Assembly: GCA_964396715.1 (NCBI GenBank)
Contig: CAYNFQ010000001.1
Coordinates: forward strand, 21,037-85,036
Reading direction: 5' to 3'
DNA length: 64,000 nucleotides
Source of the DNA: an uncultured Gammaproteobacteria bacterium
GTDB taxonomy: Bacteria > Patescibacteriota > Microgenomatia > Daviesbacterales > UBA10151
Of this stretch, positions 4,912 to 42,407 are shown piece by piece (position 1 is the first letter of the stretch; every line of letters begins with the position of its first letter). The notes under the pieces were generated by a model. The model ran no database searches. It worked only from the letters and a program-made list of their open reading frames with translations, and was not told the origin of the DNA. The position numbers and the translations under genes were made by a program.

Positions 4912-6033
4912 TTAAGGGGTAGTTTGCTGCTGTTGTCTTTGTCTGATCAAATCTGCTGCTGAGGTGGCTTGTTGTGTTCCCTCCAGCTGGCCAAAGTTGG
5001 CAGAATCTGTTTCGGCTGCCGGTGTGGCCTGAGGAAGTGGAGTTGCAACAGGTGGAGGAGGTTTAATTTGAGAAGTTTGAGTCTGAGTTGTGGCCGGCAC
5101 AGATGAGGTTTGAGGGGTCTGGCCTAACCCTAAGATAAAGTAGGCAGACGCCCCTGCCACCAGAATCAAAAGTCCAATGCCAATCCCAATCAGCCATTTT
5201 GGTATGCCTTTTCTTTCCTCGGTCGGAAGACTGGGAATTTCCGCTGAAGCAGTATTGGGGACAATTAAAGTTTCTGCAGTGGGTGGTTGTCCTGCTTCTG
5301 AGGGAGTTTGCTCCAAAGAGCCGTTATTGGATATCAGATGGGACAGATCCGTTGGTACGCCTTGAGCCGTCTCTTGAGCGGGTTGAGGTGATGGTGACCA
5401 TTCAGGCGGACCTGCCTGAATGGGATCATCGATAGCGGGAGGTTGCATAGGCGCGCCCAAGGGATTATCCAAAGGAGAAAGATGAGGCTGGAGGGGTGGT
5501 GTAAAGGTTGGAGTAGGTTCTGAGGGGGTTGGCTCTGATTGAGGAGGAGTTGGGGGTGGAACACTCCATGTTGAGGTATCCTGGGGAAAGCTTGTGGATT
5601 CTGGTTGAGCTGTAGCCGGCTGGGGCCAAGTCTGACTTGGCTGGGGGGAGGTCGGGAAAACAGGATTTTGCGGGTACATTTGAGGATTGGCTGATAAATC
5701 CGGTTGCTCTCTTGACAGTGGGGTTGGTTCCGATTGAAAAGGAGTTGGTTCCGGTGCCGGGGGAATAGGCGAAGTTTGTGGTACAGTCCAGGGAGATAGT
5801 GGGGTTGGGTTAGTTTGAGGCTGTTCCCAAGCTGAGGAGGGTTGGGATGGAGAAGGTTGGGCGCTTTGAGTAGGCCAAGCCGGCTGAGGATTTGGCATAG
5901 GAGGTGTAAAAATAGGCTGTGCTGGTGTGGATGTAAACGGATTGGTATCTTGTGGAGCTGGAGGAACGCTACCTGGAACAGGCGCTCTATTTTGCGGATC
6001 AGTGGGATTATTTGGACTGTTTGAATTATCCAT
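4912..6033 (-). CDS. proline/threonine/glutamine-rich bitopic membrane protein
   Basis: 373 aa. About 280 aa of low-complexity P/S/T/Q-rich sequence, one TM helix ([22 protein letters not shown]), and a T/Q/P-rich C-terminal tail. Divergent from secA. Confidence 0.55.
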
Positions 6034-32188: not shown

Positions 32189-34345
32189 ATGATTAAAAAT
32201 TTGTCCGTGTTTTTCCCACTATTTAACGAAGCAGGTAATGTGGAAACAACTGTCAAAAAAGCAGTTGAAGTTTTACAAAAATTAAAGCTCGGGTATGAAA
32301 TTATTCTAATTAATGACGGTTCTAAAGATGGGACAAAAAGAGTAGCAGAAGGCCTCTCTAAAGAAAATCCCAGCATTAGGGTTATAAACCATGAGAAAAA
32401 TTTAGGTTATGGTGAGGCGCTCAAGTCGGGTTTTTACAATGCCAAATATGACACGATTGTTTATACGGACGGAGACGGGCAGTTTGATTTCTCCGAAGTG
32501 ACAAAGTTCCTGGATAAGATAGATGATTATGATTTGCTGATCGGATACCGGATCAAAAGGCAAGACCCCTTTTTTAGAATACTTTTTAAAAAAGGCTGGA
32601 CTTTTGCTCTTTGGACCATGTTTGGTTTGACTTTAAAAGACGTAGATTGCGGTTTCAAAATGATAAAAAGAGAAGTCTTGGAAGCAATTCCCCATTTAGA
32701 GTCACAAAGAGGGGCAATGATCAATGCCGAGCTGGCAATTAAGGCCAAAAAAAATGGATTTAGGGTGGGACAAATAGGAGTGGATCACTACCCAAGGTTG
32801 TCCGGAAGGCCAACAGGAGCTAGTTTAAATGTGATTATTAGATCTTTTACTGATTTATTTAAACTATGGTGGAAGCTGAAAGAGCAAAAGTTTCTTTTCA
32901 TTTTGCTGGCAGGGATTTTACTTTTGGCTGCATTTTTGCGATTTTACAAAATTGATCAGTATATGCTTTTTTTGGGGGATGAAGGCAGGGATGCTTTAAT
33001 TGTGAAAGAGATTGTTGAAGGTCGGCATTTTCCCTTAATCGGCCCGCCCACATCGGTGGGAAATATTTACCTGGGCCCTCTATATTACTATATGATGGCA
33101 ATCCCCATGTTTATATTTAATTTAAATCCGGTTTCTGCAGCCGGAATGAATGCAGCAATTGGAGTTTTAACAGTATTTCTGGTTTATATCTTAGGGAAAC
33201 TATGGTTTGGCAGGGAGGCGGGCCTGATCTCTTCTTTGTTATATGCAGTCTCTCCGGTTACTATAAACTATTCCAACTTTTCCTGGAATCCCAACCCTAC
33301 CCCCTTTTTTGCCTTGCTGGTCATACTTTCTCTTGACAAATTTCATAAGTTAGGAAATTACAAATGGCTGATTTTAACAGCAGCATCAGCAGCAGCTGCT
33401 TTGCAAATGCATTATCTGGCCCTGATTTTACTGCCGGTCTTAGTGGTTGGTTGGCTTAAAGAATTATTGGCAAAAAAAAGCCCCCTTTTTTGGGGAGGAA
33501 CAATTTTAGCGCTGCTTACTTTTTTTCTTTTCATGTCGCCTCTTTTATTGTTTGATTTAAGGCACAATTTTTTAAATTTTAAAGCCATAACTGCGCTTTT
33601 TTTTGGTCAAGATACATCAGTTGGATTTAATATTGTCGATTCTTTACAAAGAATTCCTCAAATTTTTAGTCAAAGTCTCATCGGCAGATATTTAACAGCA
33701 GAAAACCCGGTTTTAACTTTTATTGTTTCAATACTTATACTAATACCGCTAATTTATACCGGTTACCTGATGTATCAAAAAAGGTCGTTTAACTACGGGT
33801 TCTGGATATTAAATAACTGGCTTTTAATAGGTATTTTGGGATTGTCATTTTATAAACAGCAAATCTTTGATCATTATTTAAACTTTCTAAATCCGGCGCC
33901 TTTTTTACTTTTTGGCTCTTTGGTAAAACTTAAGAAAATATTTTTGGCGCCAGTTTTGGTTTTAGTTGTTGTTTTAACATTTGTAAATTTAGCTAAAAAC
34001 CCCCTAAACTTGCCTCCGAATAAACAACTGGAAAGAAGCCAGCAGGTTGCCAAGTTTGTGATTGAAAAAAGTCATAGAGAGGATTTTAATTTTGCCCTGC
34101 TTGCGGAAAATAATTATGACTCAGCTTATATTTTTTATCTGGAAAAATATGGCCACAAGCCAAAAATAGTGCCGCAGGAAAAAACTACCCAGCTTTTTGT
34201 AGTTTGTGAGGATCAAATTTGTGATCCCACTCACAGCGCAAAGTACGAAGTGGCCGCATTCGGTATGTCCAAAATTGACTGGATGGAAGAATATTTTGGA
34301 GTTAAAATATACAGATTGATTCCTAATCCGTCAGGAAGACCATGA
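32189..34345 (+). CDS. fusion protein: N-terminal GT2 (Dol-P/Und-P sugar synthase-like) plus C-terminal GT-C membrane glycosyltransferase domain (paralog family A)
   Basis: N-terminus FPLFNEAGNVE...INDGSKDGT...TDGDGQ (GT-A). After about 230 aa comes a polytopic domain with the loop motif LGDEGRDALIVKE...IGPPTSVGNIYLGPLYYYMM shared with the 10059, 15529 and 17012 genes. The ATG at 32189 is preferred. Confidence 0.7.
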   Translation: MIKNLSVFFPLFNEAGNVETTVKKAVEVLQKLKLGYEIILINDGSKDGTKRVAEGLSKENPSIRVINHEKNLGYGEALKSGFYNAKYDTIVYTDGDGQFDFSEVTKFLDKIDDYDLLIGYRIKRQDPFFRILFKKGWTFALWTMFGLTLKDVDCGFKMIKREVLEAIPHLESQRGAMINAELAIKAKKNGFRVGQIGVDHYPRLSGRPTGASLNVIIRSFTDLFKLWWKLKEQKFLFILLAGILLLAAFLRFYKIDQYMLFLGDEGRDALIVKEIVEGRHFPLIGPPTSVGNIYLGPLYYYMMAIPMFIFNLNPVSAAGMNAAIGVLTVFLVYILGKLWFGREAGLISSLLYAVSPVTINYSNFSWNPNPTPFFALLVILSLDKFHKLGNYKWLILTAASAAAALQMHYLALILLPVLVVGWLKELLAKKSPLFWGGTILALLTFFLFMSPLLLFDLRHNFLNFKAITALFFGQDTSVGFNIVDSLQRIPQIFSQSLIGRYLTAENPVLTFIVSILILIPLIYTGYLMYQKRSFNYGFWILNNWLLIGILGLSFYKQQIFDHYLNFLNPAPFLLFGSLVKLKKIFLAPVLVLVVVLTFVNLAKNPLNLPPNKQLERSQQVAKFVIEKSHREDFNFALLAENNYDSAYIFYLEKYGHKPKIVPQEKTTQLFVVCEDQICDPTHSAKYEVAAFGMSKIDWMEEYFGVKIYRLIPNPSGRP

Positions 34346-35100
34346 AGAAATTATCTGTTGTCATACCTGCATATAATGAGGAAAGAAACCTTAAAAGGGG
34401 AGTGTTGGATGCTGTTGAAGATTTTTTGGAAAAAAGCGGACTGGAATATGAGGTGATGGTAGTGGATGATGGTTCAACAGATGCCACACGCGAGGTTGTG
34501 AAGGGGTATGTTGCAAAAAACAACAACTTCAGACTGATTGAAAATTCTCACGGAGGAAAAGCCATGGCTGTCATGACCGGCATGCTTAAGGCTAAAGGTG
34601 AGATAGTTTTATTTACAGATATGGATCAGGCCACCCCAATTGATCAGTGGAATAAATTTCTGCCAAAATTTGAGGAAGGTCTGCCTGCCGGTAGGCAGGG
34701 CTATGATGTTGTGATTGGCTCCCGATCTGGCAGGAAGGGGGCGCCTATGGTAAGACAACTGGCTGCCTGGGGGTTTTCATTTTTGCGGGGGATAATTTTA
34801 GGACTGCCTTTTTCCGATACCCAATGCGGTTTTAAGGCTTTTAATAGAGAAGCAATTGAAAAAATTATTCCCAAAATAAAAAGTGAATGGGGGGTGGTGC
34901 ATTTTAAGGGAGGAGCAGTCAATGCCGGCTTTGATGTGGAATTATTATACTTGGCCAAAAAATACGGCTTTAAGATTGCAGAGGTGGAGGTGGTATGGAA
35001 TTATGTGGATACGGAAAGAGTACAGGTCATAAAAGACGCCCTGGCAGCAATTTATGACATGTTAAGAATTAGAATTAATGATTTAAAGGGGAAATATTAA
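34342..35100 (+). CDS. GT2 glycosyltransferase, Dol-P-glucose/mannose synthase-like (soluble)
   Basis: VVIPAYNEERN ... VVDDGSTD ... TDMDQ motifs. 252 aa with no TM domain. A 4-bp overlap couples it to the upstream fusion gene. Confidence 0.8.
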   Translation: MKKLSVVIPAYNEERNLKRGVLDAVEDFLEKSGLEYEVMVVDDGSTDATREVVKGYVAKNNNFRLIENSHGGKAMAVMTGMLKAKGEIVLFTDMDQATPIDQWNKFLPKFEEGLPAGRQGYDVVIGSRSGRKGAPMVRQLAAWGFSFLRGIILGLPFSDTQCGFKAFNREAIEKIIPKIKSEWGVVHFKGGAVNAGFDVELLYLAKKYGFKIAEVEVVWNYVDTERVQVIKDALAAIYDMLRIRINDLKGKY

Positions 35101-35150
35101 TTCTTCGCAAGAGCTATATTTTAAGATAAATTTATGGCAAAATAGGATGT

Positions 35151-36344
35151 ATGTATGATAATCTGATTGCACAAAAAATTGCTCAACAATACCAACAGAA
35201 TCCCTTGACGGATTTTGCGAGTGTAATATCAACAACGCCATTAAACGCATTAAATTTAAATTGGCGAGAGAGAGATTTGCCTGAAATAATAAGAACCAAA
35301 CATGTTCATCGCCTGCATCCCTATCTTGGCAAGTTTATTCCACAATTGGTAGAGATTTTTTTGCGGAAATATAAACCAGGGCTTGTTTATGATCCATTTG
35401 TGGGTAGTGGTACAACAATCGTTGAAGCAAATACTCTAGGAATAGATTCTATCGGGACAGATGTTTCTGCTTTTAATGTTCTTCTTTCGAAGGTAAAAAC
35501 TGCGAAATATGATATTTCTCTTCTAGAAAAAGAAATTTATGACATCCTTGATCGCTTAAATACATATAAAAATAAATTTTATAAAGATGAAAAAGTAAAT
35601 AAGTTATTTACCATCAATAATGAGTATTTAAATGGCTGGTTCGCCCCGCAAACCCTAAAAGAACTTCTTTGTTACCTACGTTTAATCAAAGATTATACAT
35701 ATCAAGATTTACTAAAAATTATCTTATCTCGCTCGGCTCGTTCAGCACGCCTGGTTACTCATTATGATCTGGATTTCCCCAAAAAACCACAAAGAGGACA
35801 ATATTTTTGCTATAAACACAACCGAACATGCCAACCAGTGGGCGAAGCATATAAATTTTTATCACGCTATACAATTGACACGCTTAATAGAATTAAAGAA
35901 TTTTCAAAAATTAGAACACAAGCAAAAGTTGTCGTGAATCATGCTGATTCCCGAGAGGTAAAATTGCCAACAGGTATTGATATGGTTTTCACCTCACCGC
36001 CCTATATTGGTCTCATTGACTATCATGATCAACATAAGTATGCATATGAACTATTAGGATTACAAAATAATGAAACACGAGAGATAGGCGCTGCAAAAAG
36101 GGGTCAATCTGACCAAGCGAAGAAAGAATATATAAAAGGGGTAAACGAAGTACTACTCCATACTAGAGATTATATGACTAAAAATGGAATAGTTTTAATT
36201 GTAATAAATGATAGATATAATTTATATAAACCAGAAAGCGTAGGTTTCAAATCAATCGGAAAAGTTGACCGTCATGTAAATCGTCGTACAGGCCGTCGAG
36301 AAAGTGCATTTTATGAAAGCATTTTAATTTGGCAAAAAATATGA
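35151..36344 (+). CDS. DNA amino-methyltransferase (N6-adenine or N4-cytosine), alpha-class architecture
   Basis: Motif I DPFVGSGTT near aa 80 and motif IV FTSPPY near aa 285, with a target-recognition-like region between them. AT-rich codon usage. Confidence 0.85.
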   Translation: MYDNLIAQKIAQQYQQNPLTDFASVISTTPLNALNLNWRERDLPEIIRTKHVHRLHPYLGKFIPQLVEIFLRKYKPGLVYDPFVGSGTTIVEANTLGIDSIGTDVSAFNVLLSKVKTAKYDISLLEKEIYDILDRLNTYKNKFYKDEKVNKLFTINNEYLNGWFAPQTLKELLCYLRLIKDYTYQDLLKIILSRSARSARLVTHYDLDFPKKPQRGQYFCYKHNRTCQPVGEAYKFLSRYTIDTLNRIKEFSKIRTQAKVVVNHADSREVKLPTGIDMVFTSPPYIGLIDYHDQHKYAYELLGLQNNETREIGAAKRGQSDQAKKEYIKGVNEVLLHTRDYMTKNGIVLIVINDRYNLYKPESVGFKSIGKVDRHVNRRTGRRESAFYESILIWQKI

Positions 36345-37177
36345 CTGACGCACAAGAGATGAAAAAAGCAATTCAATCTGTCATTAAGTTAATGATGGAT
36401 AGAGTTATGCAGAATGTTTTGGTTATAGATCCCTTTATTAAGGAAAATCATAAAGCTAAGAAACCATTGTATGCTGCCCTGGTACCAGACGAAATATTTA
36501 AGGGCTCACATTTTGAAAGGAAGTTTGTTACTCCTTTTGGTAAAGCTTGGCAAAAACTAGCAATTGTAGCAGCTGATAAGGGTTTAGGACACGGTGTTAA
36601 TGAATATAGCATAGTAGGTAAAATAAACGCTGAGCGACTGCGTCGGATACAACAAGTGTTAAATTTACTTGAGTATTCTGAAAAAGGAAAGAAAAGAATA
36701 AAACCTAATTGGAAGAAAGAGTTGAAGTATATTTTAGAGGGAAAAAGTAAAGAATTAATCCCCACAACTGTTATTTGTGATGTTTATGTTGAGGATAAGA
36801 AGAGCGGTAAAAAGTACGCCTTTGAATTAAAAGCGCCATTACCAAATAGCGATCAAACTAAAGTAAGCAAAGAAAAGTTACTAAAATTATATAGCATGGA
36901 TCCTGTTCAAATTAATGGAGCTTATTATGCTTTGCCGTATAATCCATATGGTAAAAGAATGAATTATTCGTGGAGTTTTCCGGCTCGATGGTTCGATATG
37001 AAAAATGATGAGGTTGTTTTGATCGGAGATGAGTTTTGGGAAAAAATTGGAGGCGTAGGAACATATAAAGCCTTTATCAATGCGGTAAATGAAATTGGAA
37101 AAGAATATAAGGATCGAATATATAGAGAATTTTTAGGTATCGAACCACCAACTAATTTAGATGAGGGTAAGCTCTAG
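36341..37177 (+). CDS. candidate Type II restriction endonuclease (PD-(D/E)xK-like)
   Basis: Its ATGA start overlaps the methyltransferase stop. A PD-(D/E)xK-like arrangement (ICDVYVEDKK...FELKAP) is present. No other family is recognised. Its position directly after a solitary-looking methyltransferase is typical of a cognate nuclease. Confidence 0.45.
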   Translation: MTDAQEMKKAIQSVIKLMMDRVMQNVLVIDPFIKENHKAKKPLYAALVPDEIFKGSHFERKFVTPFGKAWQKLAIVAADKGLGHGVNEYSIVGKINAERLRRIQQVLNLLEYSEKGKKRIKPNWKKELKYILEGKSKELIPTTVICDVYVEDKKSGKKYAFELKAPLPNSDQTKVSKEKLLKLYSMDPVQINGAYYALPYNPYGKRMNYSWSFPARWFDMKNDEVVLIGDEFWEKIGGVGTYKAFINAVNEIGKEYKDRIYREFLGIEPPTNLDEGKL

Positions 37178-37198
37178 TAAAACTATAGGGGTAAAAAT

Positions 37199-37384
37199 AT
37201 GAGTAAAACAATCAAAAAATTGAATAAGCTAAATAACCTCGAAAGTTTTATCCAAATTGATACTATTAAGGGGTTCAAATATATAGATCGTGCGGGGGAA
37301 ATAGTCAACACATATTACAAAAAAATACTCCACTGTATTTACCATGGGGCTAAATGGTCTAGTAATAGAGCAACCAAAAAATAA
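37199..37384 (+). CDS. small hypothetical protein, possibly part of a degraded hsdS
   Basis: 61 aa, preceded by an AGGGG ribosome-binding site. No motif recognised. Confidence 0.3.
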   Translation: MSKTIKKLNKLNNLESFIQIDTIKGFKYIDRAGEIVNTYYKKILHCIYHGAKWSSNRATKK

Positions 37385-37515
37385 AATTGAACAACAAAAA
37401 ATTGCGGAGTTGGTGAGAAAATCTCACGAAGCCAGAAAGACATCAAAAGAGCTTTTGGAAGAAGCCAAAAGAAAGGTTGAAAAAATGATAGAAAATGGTG
37501 ATAAAATAGAAACTT
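37344..37515 (+). pseudogene. HsdS-like (Type I restriction-modification specificity subunit) conserved-region remnant
   Basis: A different frame from the 37199 ORF encodes ...IEQQKIAELVRKSHEARKTSKELLEEAKRKVEKMIE, resembling the conserved EQQKIA coiled-coil spacer of HsdS. Only about 57 codons remain. Confidence 0.35.
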
Positions 37516-38073
37516 ATGGCTGAATCTTCTTCGATGCTTCCTCTGGGGACAAGCTTACCGCAGTTTTCTTTAACTGATGTGGTTTCCGGGCAGATTATTT
37601 CTTCAACTGATTTTTCCGGCAAACCGCTCTTGGTAATGTTTATCTGCAGGCATTGTCCGTATGTAAAACATGTTGAAAATGAACTGGCAAAATTGGGTAA
37701 AGATTATCAAGGCAAAATTGGCATTGTGGCCATATCCTCAAATGACATAACAGCTTATCCGGAGGATGCGCCGGAGTCTTTGAAGGAGCAGGCAGAAGAA
37801 GTAGGTTTTAGTTTTCCTTATCTTTATGATGAAAGCCAGGATGTAGCTAAAAGTTTTAGGGCTGCCTGTACGCCGGATTTATTTCTCTTTGATAAAGAAG
37901 GAAAGTTGGTTTATCGAGGTCAATTGGACGGGAGCAGACCGGATAGCGGTATTCCGGTGACCGGAAAAGATGTTCGAGCAGCCATTGATACTTTGCTTTT
38001 CGGCCAACCCATCAGCCCTGACCAAAAACCCAGCATAGGATGTGGAATTAAGTGGAAATCTGTGATAACCTAA
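37516..38073 (+). CDS. thioredoxin-fold protein (TlpA/AhpC-TSA-like, CxxC)
   Basis: CRHCPY active-site-like motif in a thioredoxin-like fold, with a redoxin-type layout. Confidence 0.65.
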   Translation: MAESSSMLPLGTSLPQFSLTDVVSGQIISSTDFSGKPLLVMFICRHCPYVKHVENELAKLGKDYQGKIGIVAISSNDITAYPEDAPESLKEQAEEVGFSFPYLYDESQDVAKSFRAACTPDLFLFDKEGKLVYRGQLDGSRPDSGIPVTGKDVRAAIDTLLFGQPISPDQKPSIGCGIKWKSVIT

Positions 38074-38077
38074 ATTT

Positions 38078-38326
38078 ATGTCCAAAAAAGCGTTTGTGGT
38101 TATTTTAGTCTTAAGTGTGGTGGTAACTTATGGAATGGCATTTGTAGATGATGTAATTAATCCTACTAAGAATCCAACCGGTTTACCTTTTAGTTTTGCA
38201 TCTTTTAATTTTCTAGGTGGATCAAATGATAATCTTATGCTAGTTTTAGATATAACCTTTTGGTTTGTGGTTATTTGGGGAATCTGGAAAGCTATCTCTT
38301 ATTTCTCTGGTCGTGGGGGACGATAA
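38078..38326 (+). CDS. small membrane protein
   Basis: 82 aa with two hydrophobic helices. Confidence 0.35.
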   Translation: MSKKAFVVILVLSVVVTYGMAFVDDVINPTKNPTGLPFSFASFNFLGGSNDNLMLVLDITFWFVVIWGIWKAISYFSGRGGR

Positions 38327-40835
38327 CTTCAAAACTGGATAAAGAGGTATTTCCTGCTAAGTCCGTAGCAAATATTTTTATTATGTATTTTCTCCCATCT
38401 TTATCATCACCTTTTCTTGATGCCTCCAGTTTAATAGCTTGATTTATATTTGTTTGGCTTCCAAGTGTTACAGAAGATTCAATCAAGTCATATTCGTCTT
38501 CCACGATAATTTTTGTTAGATACGGATTATCATCAGCGATAGTACCTGTAATATTCACATCAACCATTTTATTATTCGGTGGCCAGATACTCTTTGGACT
38601 AACATCTAATGAAATTGTCGGGGGAGTGTAATCATAATTTGCATTTCCTTCCAAAATGCTGAACTTTTCAACATTGGCATCTATGGTTCCATTCCCGTCT
38701 TCATCCAGTTTAATAACCGGCGATTGGTCTGAATTTGTATCAAAAGTAGTCTCCGCTTTAGTATTTTCTGTCAAAGGAATTTCTTTATAAAGGATAGTTT
38801 TCGAATTTTCATCATTTTCAAATTTCCTGATTTTAAAATCAAAACTGCCCTGATTTGTTGCTTCAAATTTAACATCATAAACTCCATTTATGGGAAGATA
38901 GATAAATTTAGCATCACCCAAAGTATCATAAGAGCTTCCGGGAATATTAGTTTCAAATCCATCCGTTGTTGGGCCTGTATGATTGCCGCTTGAGTCATAA
39001 ACATGGATATCAACAGGAGAGTGAACAGACAGAGTATTGCCTGCAAGTTTGAAAGGTTGAGTGGAAACTCCGCCAGGCAACTGATTATTACTATCTAAAA
39101 TATTTTTAACTAAATTTAATGCAGGTCCATTGGTAACTAAATTGCCGTGTTTCTGATTAGTGTAAAGGGTTTGTTGAGAACCAAAGGAGGCGCTAAGTAG
39201 CGGTACTGTTTCATCGCCATTTATTATACGCATATCTTTATGAATTCCTGCTATTCCAAATAAAGAAGTGTCTTTAATTTCAATAATTTGTCCTAAGGTA
39301 GGTTGTCCTGACCCAGCGATAACCACAACGTCCACACCATTTGTAGTAGATAACGTAGAATCTATTGAATGAAAAGTTTCACTTGGGTTAAATAAAGCAG
39401 TATTATGTCCAACAATTGTTAAGAGATTCTTAATCTGATTATAATTCAGGGCTCCGTTTTCTGTTCTATATGGATAGGGATGTTGAGCATCCTCATTTGA
39501 GTAAAAGTTAAAATAAGATTGACTTGGGGCCAATTGAAAACCACTGATCATATTTTGAATAACATCATTCATTTCAGATGGAGCTAAGGATAAACAATAA
39601 GGACCAAATGGGTATTTAAGACAGCCGCCATACCTTAGTACTTTTAAAAATTCTGTAGCTCCCAAATGTGGAGTTCCCAGGGTAAATAATTTTCTGACAT
39701 TCTGGGCGCGGTTTACATCAGCTATGTAGTTTCTGGCAACCAGGCCTCCCATGGAGTGGGCTACAATATCTACTTTCGTACTGCCTGTTTGACTCTTAAT
39801 CTGGTTAATTTTATTATCAAGCTCGGTTTTAGTTGTACTAATATCTTTTCTCCAATCATACGGAAACACAAAAAGATCCTCATTAAGGATATATCCATTG
39901 GCAGTGAAAAAATCTATGGCACCTTGATATGCCCTTGCCAGCAAATTGTTTGTTAACCCTATGTGTGCTTCACTGGTTATGCCATCATCTCTCATCCGTA
40001 ATACATCAAAATAATCATCATTCCCGGGATTTGCAGCTTCATCTTCATTTACCCAAACTTTTTCTCCTGATGGATAAATATGGTTAAAAGTCCCTCCATG
40101 CCCGTCCGTAGCATTCCAGATAGTATCCTCTTCAACTTTAAGTTCCGACCCTCCAATTCCGGGAATTAAAATTAAGGGAGTTTTGAGAGAAGGTGGGGGA
40201 GCAAGAGCTGTTAGCTTGATATTATCAAATCTGACATAAATATTACTGATATCCCCTGTCCAGTAACTTAAAGTCAGAACCCCTTTTTTAACTAAAGTTT
40301 CAGAATCTGTAATATCAAAAATTAAAGTGTCCCCTATCCAAGCTTTGATATTTTCATCTTTTAGCTCAACTTTTAGCTGATACCATTTTTGATTAATTAG
40401 AGGATAAGAGTGGGTATCAAAAAGCGTAGTAACTATCCCGCTTTGATTTTTTCTTAAAATAATCTCCGGGGTATTATATAAACCGGTTCCATGTCTAAAA
40501 TTAATCTCATAAGAATCACCATCAGGAGTATATCTGAACCCTACTCCATGATCTATACCGGATTGAGCATTAAAGTCTAGCTCAATTCTGTAGTTATCCC
40601 ATTGTGAAGACCCATTACTTATTCTTCCTCCAAAAGCCCTGCCTGATTTTGATCCGACTAGATTGCCATTGTTGATATACCAGTTTCCAGACTGTATTGT
40701 CCAGCCATCCAAGTTCCCATCACTAAAATCATCAAAAAGAAGGATGTCTCCTTCTGCAGCCAAAGCAGGCAGGCTAAAGAGTGAAATCAGGATAAACAAT
40801 AAGGCTGCTTTTAAAAATTTAAATAATCTGGGCAT
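38292..40835 (-). CDS. secreted multidomain protein: N-terminal DUF1080/LamG-like lectin domain, LCAT/PGAP1-like alpha/beta-hydrolase lipase domain, and C-terminal Ig-like beta domains
   Basis: Signal peptide, then a WTIQSGNWYINNGNLVG...YRIELDF beta-sandwich, then PGIGGSEL ... FPYDWRKD ... AHSMGG (nucleophile elbow) ... GTPHLG. These are diagnostic of the LCAT-like lipase/acyltransferase family. Confidence 0.7.
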   Translation of the reverse strand: MPRLFKFLKAALLFILISLFSLPALAAEGDILLFDDFSDGNLDGWTIQSGNWYINNGNLVGSKSGRAFGGRISNGSSQWDNYRIELDFNAQSGIDHGVGFRYTPDGDSYEINFRHGTGLYNTPEIILRKNQSGIVTTLFDTHSYPLINQKWYQLKVELKDENIKAWIGDTLIFDITDSETLVKKGVLTLSYWTGDISNIYVRFDNIKLTALAPPPSLKTPLILIPGIGGSELKVEEDTIWNATDGHGGTFNHIYPSGEKVWVNEDEAANPGNDDYFDVLRMRDDGITSEAHIGLTNNLLARAYQGAIDFFTANGYILNEDLFVFPYDWRKDISTTKTELDNKINQIKSQTGSTKVDIVAHSMGGLVARNYIADVNRAQNVRKLFTLGTPHLGATEFLKVLRYGGCLKYPFGPYCLSLAPSEMNDVIQNMISGFQLAPSQSYFNFYSNEDAQHPYPYRTENGALNYNQIKNLLTIVGHNTALFNPSETFHSIDSTLSTTNGVDVVVIAGSGQPTLGQIIEIKDTSLFGIAGIHKDMRIINGDETVPLLSASFGSQQTLYTNQKHGNLVTNGPALNLVKNILDSNNQLPGGVSTQPFKLAGNTLSVHSPVDIHVYDSSGNHTGPTTDGFETNIPGSSYDTLGDAKFIYLPINGVYDVKFEATNQGSFDFKIRKFENDENSKTILYKEIPLTENTKAETTFDTNSDQSPVIKLDEDGNGTIDANVEKFSILEGNANYDYTPPTISLDVSPKSIWPPNNKMVDVNITGTIADDNPYLTKIIVEDEYDLIESSVTLGSQTNINQAIKLEASRKGDDKDGRKYIIKIFATDLAGNTSLSSFEVIVPHDQRNKR

Positions 40836-40898: not shown

Positions 40899-42407
40899 AT
40901 GGTGAATTTAGCCCTTAAATACAAAAAAGAGATTTTCATAATTCTTATTCTTTTTGCCTTTTATTTTCTCTTTAGGCTTCCAAATTTAACTTTGCAGCCT
41001 ATTTTTGCGGATGAGGCCATTTATATCAGATGGGCCCAGGTGATGAGATCAGAACCAACCTTGCGCTTTTTACCTTTATCCGATGGCAAAACACCTCTGT
41101 TCATGTGGGCTATGATCCCCCTTTTTAAAATATTTGAAGACCCTCTTTTTGCAGGAAGATTTTTATCTGTTATGAGCGGGTTTGTCACTTTGATAGGCGT
41201 GTTGGCATTAGCATGGAGAGTGTTTGGCATAAAAACTGCCCTGTGGGCATCTTTTATTTATGTAGTGGTGCCCTACACTGTTTTTTTTGACAGAATGGCT
41301 TTGGTTGATGCTATGCTTTCAGCCTTTACTGTTTGGGCTTTATTTTTTGCAACACTTCTTGCTCAAAAAGTCAGGTTGGATTTGGCCATGATCTTGGGAT
41401 TTATTCTCGGAGGAGCATGGCTCACCAAAACTCCGGCTGTTTTAAATCTTTTTCTTTTGCCAGCATCCATACTTGCTTTTAAAAAATCAAAAGAAGATAA
41501 ATACTCATCTTTAAAACTGTTTTTCTTTTGGCTGATTGCCATATTTATTGCTCTTTTGATGTATAACGCCTTAAGATTGGGGCCTAATTTTCACCTTTTA
41601 TCTTCCAGAAATGCTGATTATGTGTTTTCTCCGGTTGAACTTTTAGGCAGGCCCCTGGATCCTTTTATTCCGCATTTTCGGGATATTTCAGACTGGTTTC
41701 CCAAACTTTTGACTTGGCCTGTTTTAATTTTAGGGGGGACAGGGGTAATTTGGGTGATTAAGGAAAAGAATAAATTAGGGTTTGTTGTTTTGCTTTGGGC
41801 TTTGATACCGCTACTTTTGGAAATGGCTTTCCTTCGTACATTTACCGCCAGATATTTGTTGCCTTCCATACCTTTGATTTTAATTTTTGCAGGATATGGT
41901 ATAAGTAAAATTTCAAATTTCAAATTTCAAATTTCAAATAATTTTTTAATACTAATTCTTTCAATAGTTTTAACCGTTCCGGCGCTTCATTTTAATTATC
42001 AGCTTTTAACCAGCTCTCCGCCCGATTCTTTACCAAAAGAAGAAAGAAAAGGTTATTTTGAAGGGTGGACTGCAGGATATGGTTTAAAAGAAATAGCTCA
42101 ATTTTTAACAGAACAAAACAAAACTCAAAAAGTGGTGGTGGGTACTGAGGGGTTTTTCGGCACCCTGCCTGACGGCTTGTATATTTACCTTGATAAAGCG
42201 GGAATTTCCATAATAGGTTCTCATGCCACAATTTCAGCCCAAATAAGAAATGCCGCCAAAGACAATCTGACTTTTTTTGTTGGTAATAAAAATAATTTAG
42301 AGGGAGCGATAGATAATGTTAGACTAATCAAAGAATATCCCAAGGCAAAAGCAGTTGATGGTAAACAAGATTCAACTGTTTTGTACCAAGTTTTACCAAA
42401 AGATTAA
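40899..42407 (+). CDS. PMT/ArnT-like GT-C glycosyltransferase (GT39/GT83-like, PMT_2)
   Basis: First-loop FADEAIYIRWAQ (DE motif), 11 or more TM helices and a C-terminal soluble domain. Contains an in-frame 4x heptanucleotide repeat. Confidence 0.7.
   Translation: MVNLALKYKKEIFIILILFAFYFLFRLPNLTLQPIFADEAIYIRWAQVMRSEPTLRFLPLSDGKTPLFMWAMIPLFKIFEDPLFAGRFLSVMSGFVTLIGVLALAWRVFGIKTALWASFIYVVVPYTVFFDRMALVDAMLSAFTVWALFFATLLAQKVRLDLAMILGFILGGAWLTKTPAVLNLFLLPASILAFKKSKEDKYSSLKLFFFWLIAIFIALLMYNALRLGPNFHLLSSRNADYVFSPVELLGRPLDPFIPHFRDISDWFPKLLTWPVLILGGTGVIWVIKEKNKLGFVVLLWALIPLLLEMAFLRTFTARYLLPSIPLILIFAGYGISKISNFKFQISNNFLILILSIVLTVPALHFNYQLLTSSPPDSLPKEERKGYFEGWTAGYGLKEIAQFLTEQNKTQKVVVGTEGFFGTLPDGLYIYLDKAGISIIGSHATISAQIRNAAKDNLTFFVGNKNNLEGAIDNVRLIKEYPKAKAVDGKQDSTVLYQVLPKD
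41921..41948. repeat. perfect tandem heptanucleotide repeat (TTTCAAA) x4 inside a GT-C gene
   Basis: 28 bp, four exact 7-bp units, read directly from the sequence. It encodes SNFKFQISN within a predicted TM/loop region. Confidence 0.8.

What the first reader, a model, noticed from the sequence alone, without database searches (positions are those of the whole stretch)
35151..37515. AT-rich Type II restriction-modification insertion inside the glycosylation operon
The 35151 gene has textbook amino-methyltransferase motifs (DPFVGSGTT, then a long target-recognition-like region, then TSPPY; alpha-class order). The 36341 gene starts with an ATGA overlap and shows a PD-(D/E)xK-like CD...ELK core, so it is the candidate nuclease. 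The pair is wedged between a GT2 and a thioredoxin-like gene and is visibly more AT-rich than its neighbours. That is consistent with horizontal acquisition of a defence island into the surface-glycan locus.
Basis: partly seen in the sequence, partly recalled or inferred. Interest (0 to 1): 0.6.

Follow-up and report, generated by a model that had tools for sequence, protein, structure and literature searches.

The report
Ordinary restriction-modification pair, horizontally acquired
This is an intact, ordinary two-gene restriction-modification defence system of a known family, which a groundwater Candidatus Daviesbacteria genome acquired by horizontal transfer at a variable spot in a sugar-transferase gene cluster, partly overwriting an older restriction system there.

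Summary
35151-36344 encodes a 397-aa amino-methyltransferase: DPFVGSGTT at residues 81-89, TSPPY at 281-285, alpha order. 36341-37177 encodes a 278-aa nuclease that starts in an ATGA overlap. The "282 aa" comes from an upstream TTG.

The nuclease is a full-length member of Pfam PF09520 (TdeIII/MjaII/HinfI family, E 4e-73). D147 and E162-x-K164 are conserved, and its predicted fold is closest to EcoO109I. GenBank already names it a TdeIII-family enzyme of a Candidatus Daviesbacteria MAG.

Horizontal acquisition is supported, but by comparison rather than by composition (GC is only about 1 SD low). None of 80 related loci carries the pair. In 27 of them the GT2 gene abuts the next transferase gene. 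The same M-R module, about 80% identical in protein, occurs in other phyla with unrelated neighbours.

The inserted block is about 35101-37391. That specificity gene is intact at this site in a sister species. Another sister has an Eco47II-type system at the same site.

The specificity (probably GGNCC, N4-methylcytosine) is inferred, not shown. Low novelty.

The parts
35101..35150 (+). Left junction and the module's own upstream region. The junction falls within 35101-35113. 35114-35150 is promoter-like and conserved with other copies of the module.
   Evidence: Similarity to the GT2 genes of sister genomes stops at the GT2 stop codon (35100). Similarity to the region upstream of the methyltransferase gene in L007/L008 starts at 35114. 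The alignment of five module copies shows a shared TGG(C/T)AAAATA box 7-9 nt before the ATG. This junction is reproduced with no mismatch in two independent assemblies, L108 and L109.
35151..36344 (+). Modification methyltransferase, 397 aa. Alpha motif order: SAM-binding DPFVGSGTT (81-89), target-recognition region, catalytic TSPPY (281-285). Predicted N4-cytosine specific.
   Evidence: Pfam N6_N4_Mtase 2.9e-12 (two stretches) and MethyltransfD12 2.5e-5. PADLOC MTase_II 1.8e-89. Both motifs are invariant in 26 homologues. The best solved relative is a DNA cytosine-N4 methyltransferase (8s9n, 1.1e-5) that has the same TSPPY and FxGSGTT motifs in the opposite order. The identical protein is in NCBI as 'class I SAM-dependent methyltransferase [Candidatus Daviesbacteria bacterium]'.
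36341..37177 (+). Restriction endonuclease, 278 aa, TdeIII/MjaII/HinfI family (PF09520), PD-(D/E)XK fold. Candidate catalytic residues are E59, D147, E162 and K164. The start codon overlaps the methyltransferase stop codon (ATGA).
   Evidence: Pfam RE_TdeIII 4e-73, model positions 1-242 of 242. PADLOC REase_II 1.7e-40. The identical protein is named 'TdeIII family type II restriction endonuclease' in NCBI. Residue conservation. AlphaFold model pLDDT 81.7. The best PDB match is EcoO109I, and most other listed hits are PD-(D/E)XK nucleases. PF09520 is listed in the PD-(D/E)XK superfamily in PMC3424549.
37199..37391 (+). Pseudogene stump: the first ~64 codons of a 217-aa gene of unknown function, with two 1-nt deletions. 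It probably arrived together with the restriction-modification module.
   Evidence: 93.7% nucleotide identity to the start of an intact 217-aa gene in metagenome contig L097, over window 37198-37400. The two single-base deletions are seen in the pairwise alignment of 37199-37391. Intact 212-218-aa versions occur in L097-L101 and L103-L105. The family has no significant Pfam, NCBIfam or PADLOC match. In L097 the gene follows a different Type II MTase + REase pair.
37392..37523 (+). Remnant of the 3' end of a type I-like specificity (S) subunit gene. It is left over from an older restriction-modification system that occupied this site.
   Evidence: 88% identity over 108 nt (window 37392-37499) to the end of the 453-aa Methylase_S gene of sister locus L025, which lies directly upstream of the orthologous thioredoxin-fold gene. 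10 of the 13 differences are at third codon positions.

Best explanation
What it is: an intact, orthodox Type II restriction-modification module.
- The upstream gene makes a DNA amino-methyltransferase that marks the host's own copies of a short palindromic site.
- The downstream gene makes a PD-(D/E)XK endonuclease of the TdeIII/MjaII/HinfI family that cuts the same site in unmethylated incoming DNA.
- The two genes form one transcription unit. The nuclease start codon sits inside the methyltransferase stop codon (ATGA), so the nuclease is probably translated only by ribosomes that have just made the methyltransferase. No controller protein is encoded.
- The most likely site is GGNCC, protected as N4-methylcytosine.

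How it got here: the module entered a Candidatus Daviesbacteria genome by horizontal transfer and illegitimate recombination. It landed at the junction between a GT2 gene and a PMT-type glycosyltransferase gene, which is variable among relatives. It brought the start of a third gene with it. It deleted most of a resident type I-like methyltransferase/specificity system, whose last ~110 nt remain.

Shown here: gene integrity, family membership, motif conservation, predicted fold, absence from relatives, presence in other phyla, both junctions and both remnants.

Inferred: enzymatic activity, the recognition site, the methylated base, translational coupling, and the order of events.
For: Family and integrity:
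- PF09520 at 4e-73 over the whole model. PADLOC REase_II and MTase_II.
- About 3,000 nuclease homologues. Nearly all of the 120 closest listed cover the full length.
- D147, E162-x-K164 and E59/R60 are conserved.
- AlphaFold model pLDDT 81.7. Nearest structure EcoO109I, prob 0.99, TM about 0.4, with most other hits PD-(D/E)XK nucleases.

Methyltransferase:
- TSPPY and DPFxGSGTT are invariant.
- The nearest solved relative is an N4-cytosine methyltransferase with the same motifs in permuted order.

Module architecture:
- M (397-414 aa) followed by R (278-279 aa) with a 4-nt overlap in L007, L009, L011, L013, L094 and L095. The neighbours are unrelated.
- DNA similarity between copies begins about 40 nt before the M start codon and ends at the R stop codon.

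Acquisition:
- No M or R hit in 80 related loci. The conserved order is GT2GtrA, PMT(-), GT2-PMT, GT2, PMT.
- The GT2-to-PMT gap is 160 nt or less in 27 loci.
- The flanking GT2 is only 46-80% identical among the Patescibacteria-type relatives, while the module is 77-87% identical across phyla.

Displacement:
- Sister L025 has a LexA-like gene, an HSDR_N_2 + N6_Mtase gene, a NYN gene and a Methylase_S gene at the same site, immediately before the orthologous thioredoxin-fold gene.
- The window keeps the last 108 nt of that S gene at 88% identity, with differences by codon position of 1/2/10.

Not an assembly artefact: the left junction is seen in two independent assemblies and the right side in five.

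GGNCC lead:
- MjaII, a named member of PF09520, pairs with M.MjaII, which methylates GGNCC.
- From my own knowledge, Pfam gives GGNCC for TdeIII, and EcoO109I cuts RGGNCCY.
Against: - No biochemical or methylome data, so activity and specificity are unproven.
- The family also includes HinfI (GANTC). Newer Pfam releases name PF09520 'HinfI', so GGNCC does not follow from family membership.
- M.MjaII is an m5C enzyme, so this nuclease family pairs with different kinds of methyltransferase.
- GGNCC depletion is not specific to this genome. Observed/expected is 0.49 in the window, 0.55 in close sisters that lack the pair, and 0.63 in more distant ones. CTNAG is equally depleted. Counts inside eight module copies do not discriminate either.
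- Composition is not significantly atypical.
- No integrase, transposase, tRNA, target-site duplication or terminal repeat marks the insert. The transfer mechanism is therefore unknown.
- The structural match to EcoO109I is weak (E 4e-3, TM about 0.4).
Confidence: 0.88

Rival explanations
1. It is the same kind of system with a different specificity. The pair recognises GANTC (HinfI-like) or another site, and the methyltransferase makes N6-methyladenine rather than N4-methylcytosine.
For: PF09520 carries the name HinfI in newer Pfam releases. The Pfam family N6_N4_Mtase covers both m6A and m4C enzymes. GANTC is mildly under-represented in the window (0.79) and in other hosts of the module (0.64 pooled).
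Against: The catalytic motif is an invariant TSPPY. The closest solved relative with this motif is an N4-cytosine methyltransferase. From my own knowledge, adenine enzymes of this group normally have DPPY or NPPY. The predicted fold of the nuclease is nearest to EcoO109I, which cuts RGGNCCY by my own knowledge. GGNCC is more depleted than GANTC.
Confidence: 0.25
2. The pair is ancestral to this lineage. It was inherited vertically and lost from the relatives, not horizontally acquired.
For: No same-species genome lacking the pair was found; the nearest relative recovered has a GT2 protein only 80% identical. Composition and codon use are close to the host's. L007 also has a GT2 gene (52% identical) just upstream of a copy of the module.
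Against: 0 of 80 related loci carry M or R, which would require dozens of independent losses. The module is 77-87% identical to copies in other phyla, whereas the neighbouring GT2 is 46-80% identical within the group. Truncated stumps of two other genes lie exactly at the right edge of the block. The S-gene stump diverged under purifying selection, so it was cut recently.
Confidence: 0.04
3. The system is inactive. It is a decaying remnant or a solitary methyltransferase next to a dead nuclease gene, so it no longer restricts DNA.
For: Activity is untested. Restriction genes are often inactivated after transfer. The block is flanked by pseudogene stumps. Five independent short-read assemblies break inside the methyltransferase gene at about 35331-35362.
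Against: Both reading frames are full length against their families, with no frameshift or premature stop. All catalytic and SAM-binding residues are intact. The ATGA coupling is preserved. The assembly breaks coincide with the most conserved part of the gene. They are expected where other organisms in the sample carry the same module.
Confidence: 0.1
4. The junctions are an assembly or binning chimera. The pair belongs to another organism in the sample.
For: The module is widespread in the same kinds of environment. The window comes from a metagenome-assembled genome.
Against: The GT2-to-M junction is identical in two independent assemblies (L108, L109). The R-to-thioredoxin-to-PMT side is identical in L002-L004, and partly in L005 and L006. 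Both flanks are typical Daviesbacteria genes.
Confidence: 0.02

Closest known systems
TdeIII system of Treponema denticola ATCC 35405 (TDE0911 nuclease, TDE0909 methyltransferase)
   Same: The nuclease belongs to the family named after TdeIII and is annotated that way in NCBI. TdeIII is a working barrier to unmethylated plasmid DNA (PMC12878829 and PMC8265222). TdeIII-like pairs are known to move between species and to replace other restriction-modification genes at a locus, as in H. pylori PeCan4 (PMC3467074).
   Different: I could not obtain the T. denticola sequences, so identity to TdeIII itself was not measured. The host here is an uncultivated Patescibacteria-group bacterium. Whether M.TdeIII has the same alpha-order TSPPY architecture was not checked.
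MjaII (Methanocaldococcus jannaschii) and HinfI, other named members of PF09520
   Same: Same nuclease family. PMC3424549 lists it as group 'MjaII PF09520' of the PD-(D/E)XK superfamily, with a patchy distribution and archaea-bacteria transfer. M.MjaII methylates GGNCC.
   Different: M.MjaII is a C5-cytosine methyltransferase, whereas the partner here is an amino-methyltransferase. HinfI recognises GANTC (my own knowledge), so specificity varies within the family.
EcoO109I (PDB 1wtd/1wte), Type IIP enzyme
   Same: Best structural match to the predicted model (prob 0.99). It has a PD-(D/E)XK core. It recognises RGGNCCY, which contains GGNCC (my own knowledge).
   Different: Only 10-14% sequence identity and TM about 0.4. 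No sequence-level match. In EcoO109I the catalytic Glu has migrated (EPD-XXK, PMC3424549), whereas this protein keeps the classical D...ExK. The EcoO109I system has a C controller protein (reference title seen); this one has none.
Beta-class DNA N4-cytosine methyltransferases (solved example 8s9n/8s9m)
   Same: Same TSPPY catalytic motif and FxGSGTT SAM-binding motif.
   Different: The motif order is reversed. In the solved enzyme TSPPY is N-terminal and FxGSGTT C-terminal. Here FxGSGTT comes first and a ~190-residue recognition region separates it from TSPPY. Only the motif regions align.
Eco47II-type restriction-modification pair in sister locus L020
   Same: It occupies the same GT2/PMT junction in a related Daviesbacteria genome. 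Eco47II recognises GGNCC (my own knowledge). L020 has the strongest GGNCC depletion seen, 7 observed against 36.7 expected.
   Different: The proteins are unrelated: a PF09553 nuclease plus a MerR-fused C5-cytosine methyltransferase. The gene order is R then M.

Membership tests
Orthodox Type II restriction-modification system | Separate, adjacent genes for a methyltransferase and an endonuclease | tested here: met
   M at 35151-36344 and R at 36341-37177, same strand, 4-nt overlap. The same pairing is seen in six other loci.
Orthodox Type II restriction-modification system | The nuclease cuts, and the methyltransferase protects, the same defined DNA site | not testable with these tools
   Needs enzymology or methylome data. 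The site-depletion statistics were not discriminating.
Pfam PF09520 (TdeIII/MjaII/HinfI restriction endonucleases) | Score above the curated cut-off over the whole model | tested here: met
   246.4 bits against a cut-off of 27.2. Residues 8-253 match model positions 1-242 of 242.
PD-(D/E)XK nuclease superfamily | Conserved acidic residue on one core strand and (D/E)xK on the next, within the alpha-beta-beta-beta-alpha-beta core | tested here: met
   D147 in 78 of 79, E162 in 55 of 79, K164 in 70 of 79. In the model D147 lies on strand 139-152 and E162 on strand 158-163, with K164 just after it. The fold-search list is led by EcoO109I and consists mostly of PD-(D/E)XK nucleases. PF09520 is listed in the superfamily (PMC3424549).
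Alpha-class DNA amino-methyltransferases | Motif order: SAM-binding motif I (FxGxG), then target-recognition domain, then catalytic motif IV ((D/N/S)PP(Y/F)) | tested here: met
   DPFVGSGTT at 81-89 and TSPPY at 281-285. The order is reversed relative to the beta-class solved enzyme. There is a weak match to the D12 (Dam-type, alpha) model over residues 62-176.
N4-cytosine DNA methyltransferases | Catalytic motif SPP(Y/F) rather than DPPY/NPPY | tested here: met
   TSPPY is invariant in 26 homologues. The same motif is in the solved N4-cytosine enzyme 8s9n. That the motif predicts the target base is my own knowledge of the family.
N4-cytosine DNA methyltransferases | Product is N4-methylcytosine in DNA | not testable with these tools
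   Requires a methylome or biochemical assay.
Horizontally acquired genomic island | Present in this genome but absent at the orthologous site in relatives | tested here: met
   0 of 80 related loci have M or R. 27 have GT2 directly abutting the PMT gene.
Horizontally acquired genomic island | Atypical base composition or codon use | tested here: inconclusive
   GC z-scores of about -1. GC3 z-scores of -2.1 (M) and -1.2 (R). Synonymous codon likelihood is normal. The pair falls at the 12th percentile of same-size windows.
Horizontally acquired genomic island | Mobility hallmarks: integrase or transposase, tRNA target, flanking direct or inverted repeats | tested here: not met
   No such genes lie between GT2 and the PMT gene. 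There are no tRNAs in the window. There are no convincing flanking repeats. The right junction shows only a few nt of microhomology.

The most novel reading that the evidence does not exclude
The GT2/PMT junction of the Daviesbacteria glycosyltransferase cluster is a recurrent landing site where restriction-modification systems replace one another. Three species carry three unrelated systems there: the TdeIII-type pair, an Eco47II-type pair, and a type I-like M+S system. Two of the three appear to target the same site, GGNCC. That sequence is also the most depleted palindrome of its class across the clade. Together this would point to long-standing selection around one recognition sequence in these tiny episymbiont genomes. 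A smaller sub-point: the module pairs a TdeIII-family nuclease with an alpha-order TSPPY enzyme. I believe that combination is rarely described, but I did not test this.
Probability: 0.3. Interest if true: 0.4.

Novelty: new member of a known kind. Interest (0 to 1): 0.2.

Why it matters
On its own it matters little. It is one more Type II restriction-modification pair of a known family, and GenBank has already auto-annotated it.

Its modest value is as a clean worked example of restriction-system turnover in an uncultivated Patescibacteria genome:
- An empty site in 27 relatives.
- Three different systems at the same junction in three species.
- Visible stumps of the displaced genes.
- Both junctions narrowed to within about 10-13 nt.

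The same module at roughly 80% protein identity in several phyla points to recent, wide exchange of defence genes in groundwater and sediment communities.

If the GGNCC/m4C prediction is right, the site would need to be avoided or pre-methylated in any attempt to introduce DNA into these organisms.

Tried and rejected
- Composition as proof of transfer: GC, GC3 and codon-use z-scores are too small.
- Recognition-site depletion as a way to read the specificity:
  - GGNCC is depleted (0.49), but equally so in relatives that lack the pair, and CTNAG is as low.
  - Counts inside eight module copies do not discriminate.
  - The 5.5-kb GGNCC-free stretch around the genes (33418-38971) is only suggestive.
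- Flanking repeats: no target-site duplication or terminal inverted repeats. A 12-nt ACAAAAAATTGC occurs at 35171 and at the right junction (37394), but the geometry does not fit a duplication and it may be chance in A-rich sequence.
- Promoter and terminator scans: fewer promoter-like sites than in shuffles, and no + strand terminator.
- Sequence searches of the PDB with the nuclease, alone and as a profile: nothing significant.
- First structure prediction, with a shallow alignment: failed at pLDDT 41. It succeeded only with a more diverse alignment.
- Plasmid and phage collections: only distant relatives (34% identity or less) in Clostridium plasmids and one Streptococcus phage. One IMG/VR viral contig carries M (56%) and R (74%). 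No vector could be named.
- Papers that would give the TdeIII site and methylation type (Bian & Li 2011; Johnston et al. 2023): not held.
- Rfam and tRNA scans of the window: empty.
- A controller (C) protein: none here, although one relative (L094) has a 66-aa HTH gene upstream of M.
Full report
**What is in the sequence**

The two ORFs exist as described.

The first gene, 35151-36344, encodes a 397-aa protein.
- It has DPFVGSGTT at residues 81-89 and TSPPY at 281-285.
- It matches Pfam N6_N4_Mtase in two separate stretches (2.9e-12) and, weakly, the Dam-type D12 model.
- It matches a PADLOC Type II methyltransferase model at 1.8e-89.

The second gene starts at the ATG at 36341, which overlaps the TGA of the first gene (ATGA), and ends at 37177.
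- That gives 278 aa. Most homologues are 278-279 aa.
- It matches Pfam PF09520 (RE_TdeIII) at 4e-73 over the entire model, 246 bits against a cut-off of 27.2.
- It matches PADLOC REase_II at 1.7e-40.

Both exact proteins are already in NCBI, from a Candidatus Daviesbacteria MAG (GCA_016192255.1, contig JACPUL010000012.1). They are named "TdeIII family type II restriction endonuclease" and "class I SAM-dependent methyltransferase".

**The nuclease**

I aligned 79 diverse family representatives, 22-59% identical to the query.
- K164 is kept in 70, and E162 in 55 (Ser in 15).
- An upstream E59-R60 pair is kept in 71 and 72.

No solved structure is detectable by sequence.

A first AlphaFold run on a shallow alignment failed (pLDDT 41). 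A second run on 66 sequences of 57-87% identity gave pLDDT 81.7 and pTM 0.80. In that model D147 lies on one strand (139-152), with E162 on the next (158-163) and K164 just after it.

A Foldseek search of the PDB puts the Type II enzyme EcoO109I first (prob 0.99, E 4e-3, TM about 0.4). Most of the other listed hits are PD-(D/E)XK nucleases: Can2, Card1, NucS/EndoMS, MunI, the RecB/AddA nuclease domains, Hef, HindIII and SgrAI. Steczkiewicz et al. (PMC3424549) already list PF09520, as "MjaII", in the PD-(D/E)XK superfamily.

**The methyltransferase**

Both motifs are invariant in 26 homologues of 55-91% identity.

A profile search of the PDB finds a DNA cytosine-N4 methyltransferase first (8s9n/8s9m, 1.1e-5). 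In that beta-class enzyme, TSPPY sits at residues about 46-50 and FAGSGTT at about 220. Here the order is reversed, with roughly 190 residues of presumed recognition domain in between.

The invariant Ser-Pro-Pro-Tyr motif favours N4-cytosine over N6-adenine. That link between motif and target base comes from established knowledge of the family. It is not shown here.

**Specificity (inferred only)**

Evidence pointing to GGNCC:
- Named members of PF09520 include TdeIII (GGNCC according to Pfam, from my memory).
- They also include MjaII, whose partner M.MjaII methylates GGNCC (PMC11033074; PMC3424549).
- The nearest fold, EcoO109I, cuts RGGNCCY (my own knowledge).

Evidence against relying on that:
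- The family also holds HinfI (GANTC); newer Pfam releases use that name for PF09520.
- M.MjaII is an m5C enzyme.

Site statistics do not settle the question.
- GGNCC occurs 82 times against 168.5 expected in the window (ratio 0.49), and GANTC has a ratio of 0.79.
- But GGNCC is 0.55 in pooled close relatives that lack the pair and 0.63 in more distant ones. CTNAG is as depleted as GGNCC.
- Counts within eight copies of the module do not discriminate either.

I put GGNCC/m4C at roughly 60%.

**A self-contained, mobile two-gene module**

M (397-414 aa) followed by R (278-279 aa), with the same 4-nt overlap, occurs in:
- a Paceibacterota contig;
- the complete genome of Candidatus Velamenicoccus archaeovorus;
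- a Nitrospirota contig;
- three unassigned metagenome contigs (L007, L094, L095).

The neighbours are wholly different in each case and often defence- or mobile-type: a ThsB-TIR gene, LexA-like genes, a serine recombinase, Peptidase_M78, DUF3800 and AIPR.

The closest 120 homologues of each protein are 77-100% identical. They carry names from Omnitrophota, Elusimicrobiota, Nitrospirota, Firmicutes, Peribacteria and several Patescibacteria groups.

In a DNA alignment of five copies, similarity starts about 40 nt before the M start codon. That stretch includes a shared TGG(C/T)AAAATA box 7-9 nt upstream of the ATG. Similarity stops at the R stop codon.

One IMG/VR viral contig carries a copy (M 56%, R 74%). 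Plasmid and phage collections hold only distant relatives.

**Presence or absence in relatives**

A scan of species-representative genomes with the flanking GT2 protein returned 80 loci. Most are Daviesbacteria or other Microgenomates; the GT2 is 46-80% identical in those and 39-41% in a few distant outgroups.

tblastn shows a conserved order: GT2-GtrA, PMT(-), GT2-PMT fusion, GT2, PMT. There is no hit to M or R in any locus.
- In 27 loci the GT2 gene is followed by the PMT gene within 160 nt, often 13 nt or overlapping.
- In the window these two genes (ending at 35100 and starting at 40899) are 5.8 kb apart.
- In other relatives the gap ranges from about 0.3 to more than 6 kb and holds assorted accessory genes: an extra PMT, zinc-ribbon proteins, Bro-N, a PolB-type exonuclease, RadC, MazG-like, DinB, MsrB and YgjP.

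So the site is a general variable spot. Composition alone would not have shown it. The pair's GC is 0.341 against a window mean of 0.371 (12th percentile of same-size windows). Gene z-scores are about -1, and codon choice is normal.

**What the "spacer" 37178-37515 really is**

Two sister loci carry other restriction-modification systems at the same junction.
- L020 has an Eco47II-family nuclease (7e-55) and a MerR-fused C5 methyltransferase (3.8e-83).
- L025 has a LexA-like gene, an HSDR_N_2 + N6_Mtase protein (PADLOC MTase_I 2e-189), a NYN-domain gene and a 453-aa specificity subunit. These are followed at once by the orthologue of the window's thioredoxin-fold gene and then the PMT gene.

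Window 37392-37499 is 88% identical to the last 108 nt of that specificity gene. Similarity starts abruptly at 37392 and continues through the thioredoxin-fold gene. Of the 13 differences, 1, 2 and 10 fall at codon positions 1, 2 and 3. The two copies therefore diverged while both were under purifying selection, and the truncation is recent by comparison.

Window 37198-37400 is 93.7% identical in DNA to the start of an intact 217-aa gene in a metagenome contig (L097). The pairwise alignment shows two single-base deletions in the window copy. That gene family has no significant Pfam, NCBIfam or PADLOC match. In other contigs it sits just downstream of different restriction-modification genes.

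**Junctions and the likely sequence of events**

- The left junction lies within 35101-35113.
- The right junction lies at about 37392-37400, where the two similarities overlap by a few nucleotides.
- There is no target-site duplication, terminal repeat, integrase or tRNA.

The simplest reading is this. A fragment carrying M, R and the next gene recombined illegitimately into a resident type I-like system. It deleted everything from the GT2 stop codon to the last about 110 nt of the S gene. The order of events is inferred.

**Not an artefact**

The GT2-to-M junction is reproduced without mismatch in two independent short-read assemblies. The R-to-thioredoxin-to-PMT side is reproduced in five.

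Those assemblies break at about 35331-35362, inside the most conserved part of M. This is expected if other organisms in the samples carry related modules. One contig ends at 37395, at the right junction.

**Mechanism**

Shown: two intact genes with all family-defining residues, arranged M then R with an ATGA overlap and no controller gene.

Inferred from general knowledge of Type II systems:
- The methyltransferase marks host sites, and a dimeric PD-(D/E)XK nuclease cuts unmarked incoming DNA.
- The overlap couples nuclease translation to methyltransferase translation.
- The conserved -10-like box so close to the ATG may mean a leaderless or nearly leaderless transcript. This is a low-confidence idea and was not supported by the generic promoter scan.

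**Verdict**

The finding is an ordinary, already auto-annotated member of a known restriction-modification family. Novelty is low, and I score interest at 0.2.

The added value is the context: a variable junction used by three different restriction-modification systems in three species, with direct sequence evidence that one system displaced another.

Noticed in passing
window 37199-37391; full-length copies at L097:1271-1924, L098:3570-4223, L099:3113-3766: A 217-aa protein family with no significant Pfam, NCBIfam or PADLOC match. It repeatedly sits just downstream of different Type II restriction-modification genes. The window keeps only a frameshifted 5' stump. It may be an unrecognised accessory or defence-associated gene.
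   Followed up: partly
L020:11179-13211 and L025:11359-15930 (sister Daviesbacteria loci): The same GT2/PMT junction holds an Eco47II-family nuclease plus a MerR-fused C5 methyltransferase in one species, and a LexA-like, HSDR_N_2-N6_Mtase, NYN and S-subunit set in another. L020 also has a very strong GGNCC depletion: 7 observed against 36.7 expected in 20.7 kb.
   Followed up: partly
window, whole 64 kb, and pooled loci L014-L076: GGNCC and CTNAG are the two most under-represented NN-N-NN palindromes across the whole Daviesbacteria group (ratios 0.49-0.63 and 0.48-0.72), whether or not the locus carries this pair. The cause is unknown. CTNAG may partly reflect the stop codons it contains.
   Followed up: partly
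window 35151-36344, protein residues about 174-229: Within the presumed target-recognition region, C220, H223 and C227 are invariant and C174 nearly so (motif CYKHxRTCQP). There is a weak zf-C5HC2 Pfam hit at 215-247. This may be a small metal-binding element in the recognition domain.
   Followed up: no
window 35171-35182 and 37394-37405: An exact 12-nt repeat, ACAAAAAATTGC, occurs once near the 5' end of the methyltransferase gene and once exactly at the right junction with the S-gene remnant. It may be chance in A-rich sequence; no model fits it.
   Followed up: partly
L002-L006, L108, L109 (independent short-read assemblies of the same population): Seven contigs break at two places: at about window 35331-35362, in the conserved methyltransferase motif region, and, for one contig, at 37395 on the right junction. 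This suggests assembly-graph branches, from related modules or alternative alleles in the same samples.
   Followed up: no
window 4912-6033 (- strand): A 373-aa ORF with GC 0.52 (z = +3.9 against the other genes of the window). It encodes a Pro/Ser/Thr/Gln-rich low-complexity protein with one predicted membrane helix and no Pfam match.
   Followed up: partly
L007:3792-6837: In an unassigned metagenome contig, another copy of the module also lies just downstream of a GT2 gene that is 52% identical to the window's. The downstream neighbours are different (Peptidase_M78, DUF3800). Whether this is coincidence or a preferred site is unresolved.
   Followed up: partly
L094:129-329: One relative of the module (R 83% identical) has a 66-aa HTH_3 gene immediately upstream of M, resembling a controller protein, and an AIPR abortive-infection gene downstream. 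The window copy has neither.
   Followed up: no
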